This document shows positions 49,995 through 58,430 of a DNA stretch of 64,000 nucleotides, in pieces. The translations under genes and the position numbers were made by a program. The first letter of the stretch is position 1, and every line of letters begins with the position of its first letter. The stretch covers positions 43,180 through 107,179 of the forward strand of contig JAQTPP010000002.1 in NCBI GenBank assembly GCA_028712705.1. The letters are read 5' to 3'. Under the pieces are notes generated by a model that saw nothing but the letters and a program-made list of their open reading frames with translations, was not told the origin of the DNA and ran no database searches. Source of the stretch: Candidatus Daviesbacteria bacterium. Lineage in GTDB: Bacteria; Patescibacteriota; Microgenomatia; Daviesbacterales; UBA10151.

Positions 49995-50750
49995 TTATTT
50001 TTCGTAAATTCTGATTGCTTGCCGATATTTACAAAAGTCACAGTCGCTACCACTATTGGGTAGTTTTTCAGATTTTAAACATTCTATAGCATCGAAAATA
50101 GTTCCTTCAACCCAGCTATCGTCTCCTTCGTATGGAAGAATTTTAATATCAAATTCCAGTTTGGCATCAAAAGCTGCTTTGTCTGTATTGCCATTGCAGT
50201 AAACAAAGTATCCGGTATTTGAAACTTTGAAACAGTTTTTCCTAAAAAGCCACTGGTATATTTCCATCTGCCTTTTATAGCCAATTTGCCACTCGGCATT
50301 GAGGGTAACTTCTTCATCTTTGGCAGTAGCCTTGTAGTCAACTATGATTAGTTCTTTTTTGGGATTAACCCAAAGATCATCAATTCCCCCTGTTACCAAG
50401 ACATTACTGTGATCTATTTTTAAAGTTATTCCACCCCGTAGAGAATCTCTCCACTCATCCAACTTTTCGTGAGCCATAGGGACTGCATCAACTTTGTAAT
50501 GTTTCATCAAAGGATGGGGAGTACCATTTGCACGATGAATATCAAACTCTTTTTTTAACAATTTATCTACAGCAGAATTAAGGGAGAAGGGATACCCAGG
50601 CGGTTGAGCAACTCCTAATTTTCTATCAAGGTAAAAACATCTTGGGCAATTTAAATATAAATCAATTTTTGACCTGCTCAAACGAAATAATTCTTTAGAA
50701 TTCTTATCATATAAATTTCTTTTCCTACTTGGATTGTAATATTTAGACAT
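49995..50750 (-). CDS. Cas4-like/RecB-family PD-(D/E)xK nuclease with 4-Cys cluster
   Basis: N-terminal 'CPRC'; 'GGIDDLWV' (D), 'IIVDYKATAK' (D-x-K), 'QMEIYQ' (QxxxY); C-terminal 'C-x11-C-x2-C'. Start at the Met 4 nt after the upstream gene's stop. Confidence 0.65.
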   Translation of the reverse strand: MSKYYNPSRKRNLYDKNSKELFRLSRSKIDLYLNCPRCFYLDRKLGVAQPPGYPFSLNSAVDKLLKKEFDIHRANGTPHPLMKHYKVDAVPMAHEKLDEWRDSLRGGITLKIDHSNVLVTGGIDDLWVNPKKELIIVDYKATAKDEEVTLNAEWQIGYKRQMEIYQWLFRKNCFKVSNTGYFVYCNGNTDKAAFDAKLEFDIKILPYEGDDSWVEGTIFDAIECLKSEKLPNSGSDCDFCKYRQAIRIYEK

Positions 50751-56800: not shown

Positions 56801-58430
56801 CCAATCTTAAAACAGGATTTTGAAAATTATCGTCTGTCCTAACTTTGTTCATCGTTTCCGTTATCTTATCCTCTACAACATCAAGAGCCTCTTTCTTATC
56901 AGACAGAACTAAAACAGATTGGTTTTTAAGTATTGCGTTGAAAACAACTGCGGTTATTGTATGGCTTTTACCTGTTCCAGGAGGACCTTGCACAATAATA
57001 TATTTACAATCATCTTGCTTTATAGCTGATAGTATTTGTAGTTGTTCTTCGTTTAATGGAATCGGGCTTTGAAATACAAGTTTATCCTGTACTTCTTGAT
57101 CATTCCAATCTTCTTGAATTTCTATATTGAAACTTTTTGGGTCTTTCTGAATAAAGTCATCAATTAACTTGTTAAAAGCACCAGCTAAAATATTATCCTC
57201 GGAAGAAAGAAGCTTTAAAATTTCTTCGTAATCGTTTACCAACGCTTCATCAGATTTATCGAATAAGGTTATATAGCATGAATTAGACACCCTAACAAGA
57301 AAACTCTTCGCAACCTGCGGGTCCGTTTTATCTATATCAATATTGTTGTCTAATTCAAAAAAGTTAGTGATCTCATTCAGGATTTCGCTTGTTAATTCCC
57401 TGAAATCATCTTGATGTTGTGCTAGATAGATAATTCTTTCAGCAATGGTTTTTAGATTTCCCTTTTTATCTTTTTCTTGATTATATTGCTGTGAAATGTA
57501 TTCAAGTGCTTTCTTGTTTATGTAGACTTGAGAATCAAATTCTATATTCAATAGATCATTTTGTTTTTCTACAGTAAACGGAATATAGAAAATTGGATAC
57601 TTTGCCTTTTCAAAAGTGATATCGCAAAAATATAGATAAAATTCCTGTTTGTCTAAAATGGTACGGTTCCGCTCCATCTCATATACTTCTGCAAATAAAT
57701 CTCCGACACGGAAACTTTCAAAAAACGACAAAATATTAGTTTTGGCATTATCAATGTCAAAAACATCCTTTAATTGCTTAGGAATGTCTACCTTTTCCTT
57801 TGCCAACAGGAGCTTAATAACTTCTGAAATTTTATTTTCAAGCAAGGAGGTGAGAACAGAGGTAAGTTCCTCTTCCATTAAATAGATACTGTCCTCATCT
57901 CCTAAATTTAAGTTCTCGAGTGGTTTTTCTAAATAATTAATAAATGGTAGTACTAATTTTGATTGAATGACTTTTGAAGTTGCTTCGAGGGCTGTACTTA
58001 ACGCTTGGTCATATTCTTTTTTATACAGAGTAGACGATTTCTCAATCTCTCCACCAATTTGTTCAAGCATCTGAGAAATTTGCTTATTCGTTATTTTTGT
58101 AAGAGATAGCTCGATAAGATCAAGAAGATTTTGGGGTATATTTGTACGGTAGACACCTTTTTGGATCGCATTTAAAGCACTTTTGTCAAAAGAATGATTA
58201 ATTGCTTTCCAAACAAGATTAGAAAAAGCCGGATATTTATTAAGGTTTAAACCAATTAGTAGATTATTACCACTTCGTAATTGAACACTCCGTTTTGGGT
58301 TTCTTCTTTTATGGAAATCTGTTTCCAGAAAATCCATAAAGTATTTAGCAACTTCGCGAATAAAAGTAAGGCTCTTGGAGAGACTAAAAACTTTTTCGTC
58401 TTTATCAGTCTCATTATCAATTAATGCCAT
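53832..58430 (-). CDS. Giant SF1 (Upf1/DNA2-like) helicase fused to a DUF559/Vsr-like PD-(D/E)xK endonuclease and two topoisomerase-type zinc ribbons (Hhe-like architecture)
   Basis: Walker A '[10 protein letters not shown]'; motif II 'IIDEASQ'; 'VLVLGDRKQ'; C-terminal '[21 protein letters not shown]...[15 protein letters not shown]' REase-like; '[30 protein letters not shown]' zf-C4_Topoisom. N-terminal ~470 aa are DUF4011-like. Confidence 0.8.
   Translation of the reverse strand: [1532 protein letters not shown]

What the first reader, a model, noticed from the sequence alone, without database searches (positions are those of the whole stretch)
49995..58430. Co-oriented helicase-nuclease, PHP-SMC ATPase and Cas4-like nuclease: a composite defence/DNA-end-processing module on a mobile island
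Three co-oriented minus-strand genes are involved. The first is a 1532-aa SF1 Upf1/DNA2-like helicase with a DUF4011-like N-terminus, a Vsr/DUF559-type PD-(D/E)xK endonuclease and two topoisomerase-type zinc ribbons. The second is a 946-aa protein with an N-terminal PHP phosphoesterase fused to a coiled-coil SMC/Rad50-like ABC ATPase ('FVTHNPN' tail). The third is a Cas4-like Fe-S PD-(D/E)xK nuclease that starts 4 nt after the ATPase stop.

From memory of the defence-system literature, the first architecture matches single-gene 'Hhe'-type systems and the second matches 'Ppl'/TrlF-type PHP-ATPases. I cannot run a search to confirm either.

Functionally the set looks like a fused SbcCD analogue (PHP in place of Mre11) plus an AddB/Cas4-like nuclease plus a helicase-REase. 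Their tight linkage in one orientation, inside an IR-bounded cargo region with a methyltransferase and other nucleases, suggests a multi-component anti-MGE or DNA-end-processing system that has not been described as a unit.
Basis: partly seen in the sequence, partly recalled or inferred. Interest (0 to 1): 0.85.

Follow-up and report, generated by a model that had tools for sequence, protein, structure and literature searches.

The report
Unlinked defence genes in variable slot
The three neighbouring genes are real, but they are not one system: two separately acquired defence-type genes sit beside a conserved nuclease gene in a slot that holds different restriction and defence genes in related genomes.

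Summary
The three minus-strand ORFs exist as described, in a Candidatus Daviesbacteria (CPR) contig. Most domain calls hold. The 1532-aa protein has an SF1 helicase, a Vsr/DUF559-fold nuclease and zinc ribbons. The 946-aa protein has a PHP-fold domain and a coiled-coil ABC ATPase and is a full-length NCBIfam TrlF-family member. The 251-aa protein is a PD-(D/E)XK nuclease.

The proposal that they form one multi-component system is not supported.
- TrlF homologues: 33 loci, helicase in none, Cas4-like nearby in one (5 kb away, opposite strand).
- Cas4-like homologues: 84 loci, no TrlF or helicase.
- Helicase homologues: nine contexts, no TrlF.

A related genome shares the flanking SNase, Cas4-like and tRNA-Glu genes but carries RadC plus type I R-M in place of helicase plus TrlF. 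Another carries type III R-M plus Shedu. The helicase|TrlF junction holds two pseudogene scars: a DUF2130 5' remnant and a type IIG R-M C-terminal remnant.

The helicase is not a member of Hhe or ProA, and the ATPase is not a member of Ppl, by the curated cut-offs.

Best reading: two independent single-gene defence-type cassettes in a cargo hotspot of a tRNA-linked, serine-recombinase-associated island. Defence function is inferred, not shown. Interest is modest.

The parts
53832..58430 (-). 1532-aa SF1 (Upf1-like) helicase fused to a Vsr/DUF559-fold endonuclease and two C-terminal zinc ribbons. Stand-alone, horizontally transferred cassette.
53750..53829 (-). Degraded 5' remnant of a DUF2130 gene, the helicase's downstream neighbour in its closest relatives.
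   Evidence: L040 DNA homology runs 82 nt past the helicase stop, to 53750. tblastn of L040 DUF2130 residues 8-27 gives 60% identity, E 0.035. A frameshift and stop are visible in the sequence.
53585..53677 (-). 30-codon ORF that is a C-terminal remnant of a type IIG (Eco57I/MmeI-like) R-M enzyme. It ends just upstream of the TrlF ATG.
   Evidence: The sequence ...VYKLYGLTQEEIAIVENNKE*. The same C-terminal motif ends the 1138-aa Eco57I/TaqI_C/N6_Mtase protein of L056.
50743..53583 (-). 946-aa TrlF-family protein: N-terminal PHP-fold phosphoesterase, then an ABC ATPase split by a roughly 350-aa coiled coil.
49995..50750 (-). 251-aa Cas4-like PD-(D/E)XK nuclease. Conserved anchor gene at the edge of the cargo slot, not part of the cargo.
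   Evidence: PDDEXK_1. The top 120 homologues are 76-91% identical and about 251 aa. 81% nt identity to L034 over exactly 50750-49992. TrlF and helicase are absent from 84 homologous loci.
58492..59040 (-). Staphylococcal-nuclease (SNase) gene. Conserved anchor at the other edge of the cargo slot. The upper bound is approximate.
   Evidence: Pfam SNase. 77% nt and 81% aa identity to L034, 49% aa to L048.
49180..49980 (+). Class I SAM-dependent methyltransferase (Methyltransf_11/25/31), convergent with the Cas4-like gene. No DNA-methylase family was hit.
46750..48435 (-). Large serine recombinase. Its 3' end overlaps tRNA-Glu on the opposite strand, and it is bracketed by an 84-nt inverted repeat.
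   Evidence: Resolvase, Recombinase and Zn_ribbon_recom. IR 46936-47019 / 48840-48923. 65% aa homologue in the same position in L048.
46867..46943 (+). tRNA-Glu(UUC), the probable integration target.
   Evidence: ARAGORN. Rfam tRNA, 59 bits. 100% identical in L034 and L036.
63223..63242 (+). Exact 20-nt direct copy of the tRNA-Glu 3' end. Candidate far boundary of a 16.3-kb island.
   Evidence: Direct repeat D5. The adjacent flank resembles the tRNA-Glu flank of L034 and L036.
48918..49120 (.). Left arm of the 203-nt, 99% inverted repeat.
62648..62850 (.). Right arm of the 203-nt, 99% inverted repeat.

Best explanation
Positions 50751-58490 are a variable cargo slot. It is flanked by two conserved genes, SNase and a Cas4-like PD-(D/E)XK nuclease, inside a low-GC island that is linked to tRNA-Glu and a serine recombinase in a Daviesbacteria (CPR) genome.

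In this genome the slot holds two unrelated, separately acquired single-gene cassettes.

**(i) Helicase-nuclease.** This is an SF1 helicase fused to a Vsr-fold nuclease and zinc ribbons. Its closest relatives travel with an HTH_17 gene and a DUF2130 gene. Here only a scar of DUF2130 remains.

**(ii) TrlF-family PHP/ABC-ATPase.** Elsewhere this gene sits at the 3' end of, or embedded in, restriction-modification operons. Here it still carries the last 30 codons of a former type IIG R-M neighbour.

The Cas4-like gene is not a partner of either. Its start codon is simply where the exchangeable segment ends, so whatever gene occupies the slot abuts or overlaps it.

**Shown:** the anatomy, the lack of co-occurrence, the scars and the slot comparison.

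**Inferred mechanism.** Each cassette acts alone as a nucleic-acid-targeting defence enzyme. The TrlF ATPase head and coiled coil would sense DNA ends or structures, or loss of the neighbouring R-M activity, and license the PHP phosphoesterase to degrade DNA. This resembles OLD, Gabija and PARIS-type ABC ATPases and PrrC embedded in type I R-M. The helicase would translocate on foreign nucleic acid and cut with its Vsr-like domain.
For: **Co-occurrence**
- Helicase in 0 of 33 TrlF loci. Cas4-like in 1 of 33, 5 kb away on the opposite strand.
- TrlF and helicase in 0 of 84 Cas4-like loci.
- TrlF in none of the nine helicase contexts: L038/39, L040/41, L125, L126-128, L129/130, L131/132 and L122-124.

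**Slot comparison**
- L034 shares SNase (77% nt), the Cas4-like gene (81% nt, homology ending exactly at its ATG) and tRNA-Glu (100%). Between them it has RadC plus HsdMSR.
- L048 has type III R-M, an SDH protease and Shedu in the same slot, then FtsK, a serine recombinase and a tRNA.
- L037 has type I R-M, Fic and a toxin-antitoxin pair.
- R-M seed proteins occur upstream of the Cas4-like gene in 11 of 43 loci (L034 and L035 carry the same arrangement) and never downstream.

**Scars at the junction:** the DUF2130 5' remnant and the Eco57I-type C-terminal remnant.

**Different histories:** the helicase is 94% aa and 89.6% nt identical to a Beckwithbacteria copy. The best TrlF match is 74%.

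**TrlF neighbours:** its co-directional upstream neighbours are mainly R-M genes, namely Methylase_S, ResIII, MvaI_BcnI, CfrBI, N6_Mtase, N6_N4_Mtase and GmrSD. In L022 and L024 the order is hsdM-hsdS-TrlF-hsdR.

**Composition:** GC is 0.31-0.32 against about 0.40 in the flanks.

**Literature:** genes embedded in R-M systems are often defence genes (Payne et al., bioRxiv 10.1101/2024.01.29.577857).
Against: - No experiment bears on function. The defence role of TrlF-family proteins and of this helicase family is guilt by association only.
- The genes are co-oriented, and the TrlF stop overlaps the Cas4-like start by 8 nt, so co-transcription and translational coupling in this genome are possible.
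- TrlF generally follows a nuclease or R-M gene, so a loose functional synergy with the upstream helicase-nuclease cannot be excluded.
- In L001, the closest TrlF locus, a different Cas4-family protein (DUF2779) follows TrlF. It has no detectable similarity to the window protein.
- The samples are limited: 33 species representatives for TrlF and about ten contexts for the helicase.
- The PHP active site is non-canonical and could be inactive.
- The contig is from a MAG with long inverted repeats, so local mis-assembly is not excluded, although none of the three gene junctions lies at a repeat.
Confidence: 0.8

Rival explanations
1. Helicase-nuclease, PHP-ABC ATPase and Cas4-like nuclease form one dedicated multi-component anti-MGE or DNA-end-processing system: an SbcCD analogue, plus an AddB/Cas4-like nuclease, plus a helicase.
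For: The genes share orientation. The TrlF stop and the Cas4-like start overlap by 8 nt. All three carry nucleic-acid-processing domains. The helicase is followed by some PD-(D/E)XK gene in several contexts: DUF2130 in L038-41 and DUF2779 in L126-128. TrlF is followed by a DUF2779 protein in L001.
Against: There is no co-occurrence from any of the three sides. Two pseudogene scars sit at the helicase|TrlF junction. The Cas4-like gene is conserved at 65-91% in loci with entirely different upstream genes, and those genes abut it just as tightly: Shedu ends 4 nt before it in L048. The DUF2779 protein is not similar to the window nuclease.
Confidence: 0.05
2. Housekeeping repair. The TrlF protein is the CPR cell's SbcCD/Rad50-Mre11 substitute, and the Cas4-like protein and the helicase are its AddAB/RecBCD-like end-resection partners.
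For: CPR genomes are reduced and lack many repair genes (general knowledge). The Cas4-like protein is very strongly conserved across Microgenomates. TrlF has an ABC ATPase with a long coiled coil plus a phosphoesterase.
Against: TrlF and the helicase are patchy across unrelated phyla and even archaea, have low GC, and sit beside recombinases and R-M genes. TrlF scores below the SMC_N cut-off (22.8 against 40). It has no Cys in the coiled coil, so no Rad50 zinc hook (sequence). The closest relative with the same flanks (L034) lacks both genes.
Confidence: 0.05
3. Element-maintenance or anti-defence cargo. TrlF and/or the helicase serve the mobile island itself, for example in replication, transfer, exclusion of competing elements or counter-defence, rather than protecting the host from phage.
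For: A serine recombinase lies within 10 kb in 9 of 33 TrlF loci and in several helicase loci. A terminase lies next to the helicase in L040. Three helicase homologues are on IMG/VR contigs. L048 carries FtsK. NCBIfam's sister family Spaf_1101 scores 113 bits.
Against: TrlF's immediate operon partners are overwhelmingly R-M enzymes rather than transfer genes. No TrlF homologue was found in IMG/VR. The best defence-library hits are to defence or candidate-defence models: PDC-S37, MkoA/MkoC and Ppl.
Confidence: 0.1

Closest known systems
TrlF family AAA-like ATPase (NCBIfam NF045780)
   Same: End-to-end match above the curated cut-off (547 against 350 bits). Same length of about 945 aa. N-terminal PHP-fold domain and a coiled-coil ABC ATPase.
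   Different: Nothing at the level of family membership. The family has no experimentally described function that I could find. The 'TrlF' in the searchable literature is an unrelated tropolone thioesterase.
Ppl (single-gene PHP + ATPase anti-phage system; Gao et al. 2020, as summarised in PMC11482910)
   Same: Same two-module logic, a PHP phosphoesterase fused to an ABC-type ATPase. It is a single-gene system. There is local homology in the ATPase C-lobe (PADLOC E 1e-16, NCBIfam 66 bits).
   Different: It scores far below the Ppl equivalog cut-off (66 against 1000 bits) and belongs to a separate NCBIfam family. The PHP metal-ligand set is altered. No anti-phage test exists for this family.
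Hhe, PDC-S37, ProA and Mokosh MkoA/MkoC helicase-nuclease defence proteins
   Same: Large single polypeptide with an SF1 Upf1-like helicase. Like Hhe, it has a C-terminal Vsr/DUF559-type endonuclease.
   Different: Only the helicase core aligns. Hhe scores 72 against 2000 bits and ProA 120 against 1500. No DUF4011 or HEPN N-terminal domain was detectable. It has two extra C-terminal zinc ribbons. PDC-S37 is itself an untested candidate.
Defence genes embedded in R-M operons (PrrC in EcoprrI hsdMSR; 'guilt-by-embedding' candidates of Payne et al. 2024)
   Same: TrlF homologues sit co-directionally inside or at the end of type I, II, III and IV R-M operons with 3-7 nt spacing, for example hsdM-hsdS-TrlF-hsdR in L022 and L024. 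Like PrrC, TrlF has an ABC-type ATPase.
   Different: In the window the R-M partner has been lost except for a 30-codon remnant. The effector is a PHP phosphoesterase, not an anticodon nuclease. No link to R-M inactivation has been shown.
Mre11-Rad50 / SbcCD
   Same: A phosphoesterase working with a coiled-coil ABC ATPase. This is an analogy at the level of what it works like.
   Different: The nuclease has a PHP fold rather than a calcineurin-like fold. The two modules are fused in one chain. There is no zinc hook. SMC_N scores below the cut-off. The distribution is patchy and mobile.
Cas4 / AddB-type RecB-family nucleases
   Same: PD-(D/E)XK_1 domain with a D...D-Y-K and Q-x-x-x-Y motif pattern. 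Four conserved Cys lie at the two termini.
   Different: It scores below the Cas4 equivalog cut-off (34.6 against 65). No CRISPR array or cas genes are nearby. The Cys arrangement is CxxC...CxxC rather than C...CxxCx5C. It is a solo gene of about 251 aa, conserved across Microgenomates.

Membership tests
TrlF family AAA-like ATPase (NF045780) | Whole-protein HMM score at or above the curated cut-off (350 bits), aligned end to end | tested here: met
   547 bits. Residues 7-942 align to profile positions 1-944 of 944.
TrlF family AAA-like ATPase (NF045780) | Intact ABC-ATPase motifs: Walker A, Q-loop, signature, Walker B and H-loop | tested here: met
   GGKSTGKS, Q413, SPGKKG, LLDQPEDD and THN are all invariant in 20 homologues.
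Ppl anti-phage protein (NF042955 / PDLC02208) | Whole-protein score at or above the curated cut-off (1000 bits) | tested here: not met
   66 bits. The PADLOC hit covers only residues 766-879.
Ppl anti-phage protein | PHP phosphoesterase domain fused to an ATPase | tested here: met
Ppl anti-phage protein | Protection against phage when expressed alone | not testable with these tools
   Needs plaque assays.
Hhe (NF042953 / PDLC02194) | Whole-protein score at or above the curated cut-off (2000 bits) | tested here: not met
   72.3 bits, covering only residues 950-1246.
Hhe | DUF4011-containing N-terminal region | tested here: not met
   No Pfam family at E<=0.05 for residues 1-450, and none in the whole-protein scan.
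Hhe | SF1 helicase plus Vsr-type endonuclease in one polypeptide | tested here: met
ProA anti-phage protein (NF058533) | Score at or above the cut-off (1500 bits) | tested here: not met
   120 bits.
PADLOC PDC-S37 (candidate) | Full-length similarity to the model | tested here: inconclusive
   E 2.3e-39, but the best stretch aligns only residues 963-1293 to model positions 928-1247 of 1550. PADLOC has no curated cut-off.
Cas4 (TIGR00372) | Score at or above the cut-off (65 bits) | tested here: not met
   34.6 bits.
Cas4 | Association with a CRISPR array or cas genes | tested here: not met
   No regularly spaced repeat family in 44-64 kb. No cas domains among the neighbours.
PD-(D/E)XK nuclease superfamily (PF12705) | Score at or above the gathering cut-off (22 bits) | tested here: met
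   50 bits. Residues 23-244 align to profile positions 1-244 of 247.
Rad50/SbcC (SMC_N) | SMC_N score at or above the gathering cut-off (40 bits), and a CxxC zinc hook in the coiled coil | tested here: not met
   22.8 bits. No Cys was seen in the coiled-coil region of the translated sequence, by reading.
Multi-gene defence system (any) | Components co-occur in conserved order across genomes | tested here: not met
   Helicase in 0 of 33 and Cas4-like in 1 of 33 TrlF loci. TrlF and helicase in 0 of 84 Cas4-like loci. TrlF in none of the nine helicase contexts.

The most novel reading that the evidence does not exclude
Two things remain open and would be new if true.

(1) TrlF-family PHP/ABC-ATPase proteins, of which more than 3,600 homologues were found, may be an uncharacterised class of defence enzyme. 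They have no own model in PADLOC-DB 2.0.0. They are recurrently embedded in or appended to type I, II, III and IV R-M operons. They could act as a second-line nuclease that is licensed when restriction is blocked, or that finishes off restricted DNA.

(2) The interval between SNase and the Cas4-like gene may be a dedicated defence-cargo hotspot of an island family in Microgenomates (CPR) that is associated with tRNA genes and serine recombinases. The highly conserved Cas4-like gene would serve as the homology anchor for cassette exchange.
Probability: 0.35. Interest if true: 0.55.

Novelty: new member of a known kind. Interest (0 to 1): 0.3.

Why it matters
The result removes a tempting but unsupported 'new three-gene system'. 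It also shows, through pseudogene scars at a cassette junction, how adjacent, co-oriented defence-type genes can mimic an operon.

Two leads are worth following.
- TrlF-family proteins are abundant and tightly tied to R-M operons, yet functionally uncharacterised.
- CPR bacteria, whose immunity is thought to rest largely on R-M, appear to swap R-M, Shedu, TrlF and helicase-nuclease cassettes at one slot beside a conserved nuclease gene.

Neither lead is surprising in kind: defence islands, hotspots and embedding in R-M are all established concepts.

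Tried and rejected
- **Literature on 'TrlF'**. Only spectroscopy acronyms and an unrelated Streptomyces tropolone thioesterase turned up. The origin of the NCBIfam name was not traced.
- **'Spaf_1101' and 'DUF2130' literature**. Nothing functional was found. DUF2130 is only listed in a PD-(D/E)XK superfamily survey.
- **PDB sequence search**. No hits for TrlF or the Cas4-like protein. The helicase gave only Upf1 and IGHMBP2 cores.
- **Pfam detection of PHP.** It failed for the window protein and reached only E 0.1 in 2 of 20 homologues. The question was resolved by structure prediction instead.
- **DUF4011 in the helicase N-terminus.** Not found.
- **IMG/VR scans.** None for TrlF, three for the helicase and four for the Cas4-like protein. 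This argues against a mainly phage-borne origin.
- **Promoter and terminator scan of 49-59.5 kb.** Counts were no higher than in shuffles, so operon structure could not be inferred.
- **Rfam over 44-64 kb.** Only the tRNA was found. The 203-nt repeat is not a known RNA family.
- **TrlF plus a Cas4-family gene as a recurring pair.** I considered this because of the DUF2779 protein after TrlF in L001. I rejected it because there is no similarity to the window nuclease and no such neighbour in the other loci.
- **A Pfam census of all ORFs upstream of the Cas4-like gene.** Abandoned because the set exceeded the tool's size limit. It was replaced by a seed-based tblastn census.

Full report
**1. 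What is there**

The window comes from a Candidatus Daviesbacteria (Patescibacteria/CPR) metagenome-assembled contig. All three proteins are found at 100% identity in one 137-kb contig so annotated.

The three minus-strand ORFs exist with the stated lengths:
- 53832-58430, 1532 aa
- 50743-53583, 946 aa
- 49995-50882 as the longest ORF

The third gene really starts at ATG 50750 and gives a 251-aa protein. That matches the public annotation and essentially all homologues.

GC falls to 0.31-0.32 across the two large genes, against about 0.40 in the flanks.

**2. Domain checks**

*Helicase.*
- Pfam gives AAA_11, AAA_12 and Zn_ribbon_Top1 (residues 1496-1529), plus a weak MTES_1575 REase hit. PDB sequence hits are to Upf1 and IGHMBP2 cores.
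- An AF2 model of the last 283 residues has pLDDT 66. Foldseek gave only weak REase hits.
- Together with an invariant E-Y-D-G-F-x-E-H motif and two invariant 4-Cys clusters, the 'Vsr/DUF559 nuclease plus two zinc ribbons' reading holds.
- The 'DUF4011-like N-terminus' does not hold. Residues 1-450 and the 350-residue insert in the helicase hit no Pfam family at E<=0.05.

*ATPase.*
- It is a full-length member of NCBIfam NF045780, 'TrlF family AAA-like ATPase' (547 bits against a cut-off of 350).
- Walker A, Q-loop, signature, Walker B and H-loop are invariant in 20 homologues.
- The metal-ligand set is non-canonical. Q17 and Y60 replace two His, and only D15, Y60, E89 and D242 are invariant.
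- No Cys occurs in the coiled-coil region, so there is no Rad50 zinc hook (sequence).

*Third protein.* It is PDDEXK_1 (50 bits against 22) but falls below the Cas4 cut-off (34.6 against 65). Its cysteines form CxxC...CxxC.

**3. Membership in named defence families**

The curated cut-offs show resemblance, not membership:

| Family | Score (bits) | Cut-off (bits) |
|---|---|---|
| Hhe | 72 | 2000 |
| ProA | 120 | 1500 |
| Ppl | 66 | 1000 |

PADLOC's best helicase hit is the untested candidate PDC-S37, and only the helicase core aligns. TrlF's best hit is a local match to Ppl. TrlF therefore has no own model in PADLOC-DB 2.0.0.

**4. Do the three genes belong together?**

I tested this from all three sides.
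- *TrlF side.* A scan of one genome per GTDB species gave 33 loci with ±10 kb flanks and 30-74% identity. tblastn found the helicase in none and a Cas4-like homologue in one, L020, 5 kb away on the opposite strand.
- *Cas4-like side.* Across 84 loci (four from look-ups and 80 from metagenomes) there was no TrlF and no helicase.
- *Helicase side.* There are nine distinct contexts. L038/39 and L040/41 carry HTH_17, helicase and DUF2130. L126-128 carry the helicase and DUF2779. L125, L129/130 and L131/132 carry the helicase alone. Three are IMG/VR contigs. None has TrlF.

**5. Direct evidence that the adjacency is secondary**

DNA homology to L040 (83.5%) continues 82 nt past the helicase stop into what is, in L040, the start of the DUF2130 gene. 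The window sequence there is a frameshifted remnant.

Just upstream of the TrlF ATG lies a 30-codon ORF (53585-53677) that ends ...VYKLYGLTQEEIAIVENNKE*. The same C-terminal motif ends a 1138-aa Eco57I/TaqI_C/N6_Mtase (type IIG R-M) protein in L056.

So the 248-nt spacer is a junction between two cassettes. Each still carries a scrap of its former neighbour.

The two genes also have different histories. The helicase is 94% aa and 89.6% nt identical to a Beckwithbacteria copy and 64% to an Aenigmarchaeota one. TrlF's best match is 74%.

**6. The slot**

L034 is a related genome, with Cas4-like 87% and SNase 81% aa identity. It shares three anchors with the window in the same order and orientation:
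- SNase, at window 58956-58491
- the Cas4-like gene, at window 50750-49992, with homology stopping exactly at its ATG
- tRNA-Glu, 100% identical

Between SNase and the Cas4-like gene it carries a 259-aa gene, RadC, HsdM, HsdS, HsdR and small ORFs, instead of the helicase and TrlF.

Other loci fill the slot differently.
- L048 has type III Mod and Res, an SDH-type protease and Shedu SduA, which ends 4 nt before the Cas4-like ATG. It then has Cas4-like, FtsK, a 65%-identical serine recombinase and tRNA-Gly.
- L037 has type I R-M with DUF4145 genes, Fic and a toxin-antitoxin pair.
- L056 has a type IIG enzyme.

A seed-based census found type I, IIG or III R-M genes upstream of the Cas4-like gene in 11 of 43 loci that have at least 2.5 kb of upstream sequence (L034 and L035 carry the same arrangement). 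None lay downstream.

The Cas4-like protein itself is 65-91% identical across these loci. Its other neighbours are not conserved.

The tight abutment or overlap with whatever lies upstream is therefore a property of the slot boundary, not of a TrlF partnership.

**7. What TrlF normally sits next to**

In the 33 loci no single partner is conserved. The immediately upstream, co-directional gene, usually 3-7 nt away or overlapping, is mostly an R-M component:
- HsdS in three loci
- type III Res-like helicases in three
- MvaI/BcnI and CfrBI restriction enzymes
- N6 and N4 methylases
- GmrSD

L022 and L024 read hsdM-hsdS-TrlF-hsdR.

This is the 'embedded in R-M' pattern that Payne et al. used to predict defence genes, and of which PrrC is the classic case. 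The type IIG remnant upstream of the window's TrlF fits this history.

**8. Island context**

A large serine recombinase (46750-48435) lies next to tRNA-Glu, and its ORF overlaps the tRNA on the opposite strand. The same arrangement occurs at tRNA-Asn in L038.

An exact 20-nt copy of the tRNA 3' end lies at 63223-63242. Its flank resembles the tRNA-Glu flank of L034 and L036.

An 84-nt, 99% inverted repeat brackets the recombinase. A 203-nt, 99% inverted repeat (48918-49120 / 62648-62850) brackets the 13.5 kb that includes the three genes.

I could not resolve the integration or inversion history, and MAG mis-assembly at the repeats is not excluded.

The neighbouring methyltransferase is a Methyltransf_11-type enzyme, not a recognisable DNA methylase.

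**9. Mechanism (inferred)**

*TrlF.* It is an ABC ATPase with a long coiled coil fused to a PHP phosphoesterase. It plausibly works like OLD, Gabija, PARIS or Septu-type ABC-ATPase nucleases, or like Ppl, which is itself described as uncharacterised. ATP-dependent sensing of DNA ends or structures, or of interference with the neighbouring R-M enzyme, would license phosphodiester cleavage. Whether the altered PHP site is active is unknown.

*Helicase.* It plausibly loads on foreign nucleic acid, possibly single-stranded DNA through the topoisomerase-type zinc ribbons. It would then translocate and cut with the Vsr-fold domain.

*Cas4-like nuclease.* Its conservation and position suggest a backbone or housekeeping role, such as recombination or end processing. 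The data cannot say which.

None of these activities has been tested.

**10. Verdict**

- The interpretation as a composite three-gene system is not supported.
- The locus is best filed as new members of known kinds: a TrlF-family protein and an Hhe-like, unnamed helicase-nuclease family, sitting in a defence-cargo hotspot.
- Residual interest lies in the uncharacterised, R-M-embedded TrlF family and in the CPR hotspot itself.

Noticed in passing
window 46867-47019, 48840-49120, 62648-62850, 63223-63279: A nested repeat architecture. An 84-nt, 99% inverted repeat starts inside the tRNA-Glu 3' end and brackets the serine recombinase. A 203-nt, 99% inverted repeat directly adjoins it and brackets 13.5 kb. 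An exact 20-nt direct copy of the tRNA 3' end, plus a flank like that of L034 and L036, lies at 63223-63279. This suggests integration followed by one or more inversions. Assembly artefacts are not excluded.
   Followed up: partly
window 46750-46943; L038 7086-7159 vs 7132-8628: The 3' end of the large serine recombinase ORF overlaps a tRNA gene on the opposite strand, both here (tRNA-Glu) and in a Beckwithbacteria island (tRNA-Asn). In L048 a 65%-identical recombinase ends 73 nt before tRNA-Gly.
   Followed up: partly
L022 and L024, about 7200-15780: TrlF homologues are embedded between hsdS and hsdR of type I R-M operons (hsdM-hsdS-TrlF-hsdR) with overlaps or gaps of 10 nt or less. L004 and L007 read methylase, restriction enzyme, TrlF. 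L001 reads type III Mod, Res, TrlF, DUF2779.
   Followed up: partly
L038 9829-15855; L040 9810-15625: The closest helicase homologues (94% and 86%) sit in a conserved trio: a 61-64-aa HTH_17 (MerR/excisionase-like) gene overlapping the helicase start, then the helicase, then DUF2130 (a PD-(D/E)XK family) 4-9 nt downstream. DUF2130 has no significant PADLOC match. This could be an undescribed multi-gene module.
   Followed up: partly
L126-L128 10599-12098; L123 13032-14468; L001 12925-14400: DUF2779 proteins, which have a Cas4-like N-terminal domain, recur next to both helicase homologues and a TrlF homologue. This suggests DUF2779 is another defence-island gene.
   Followed up: no
window 49995-50750: The Cas4-like protein has two CxxC pairs, one near each terminus, instead of the one-plus-three cysteine pattern of Cas4 and AddB. 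Whether it binds Fe-S or Zn is open. It is 65-91% identical across many Microgenomates lineages although its neighbours vary.
   Followed up: partly
L034 13436-18455: On the other side of tRNA-Glu the related genome carries HTH_17, a KAP NTPase, QatB, a QueC-like gene and TatD, which together look like a QatABCD system.
   Followed up: no
proteins P0323, P0331 and P0349: Full-length helicase homologues at 62-64% identity are annotated in archaea (Aenigmarchaeota and an uncultured archaeon). A Parvarchaeota homologue is similar over only part of its length. This implies transfer of the cassette between domains.
   Followed up: no
window 44825-45826: The UDP-glucose/GDP-mannose dehydrogenase ORF lacks the C-terminal domain and part of the N-terminal domain, so it looks truncated. 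A 26-nt, 92% direct repeat (44028-44053 / 44802-44827) flanks the three small ORFs between it and dnaE.
   Followed up: no
window 59045-60265 and 60312-60884: A 406-aa ORF with no Pfam match contains imperfect 9-nt (Gly/Glu-rich) repeats at 59379-59420 and 59934-59957. Next to it is a LigT/2'-5' RNA ligase-family gene. Both lie inside the IR-bounded segment.
   Followed up: no
window 62867-63190: A small GIY-YIG nuclease gene lies between the right arm of the 203-nt inverted repeat and the partial tRNA copy. A 41%-identical homologue lies beside tRNA-Gly in L048.
   Followed up: no
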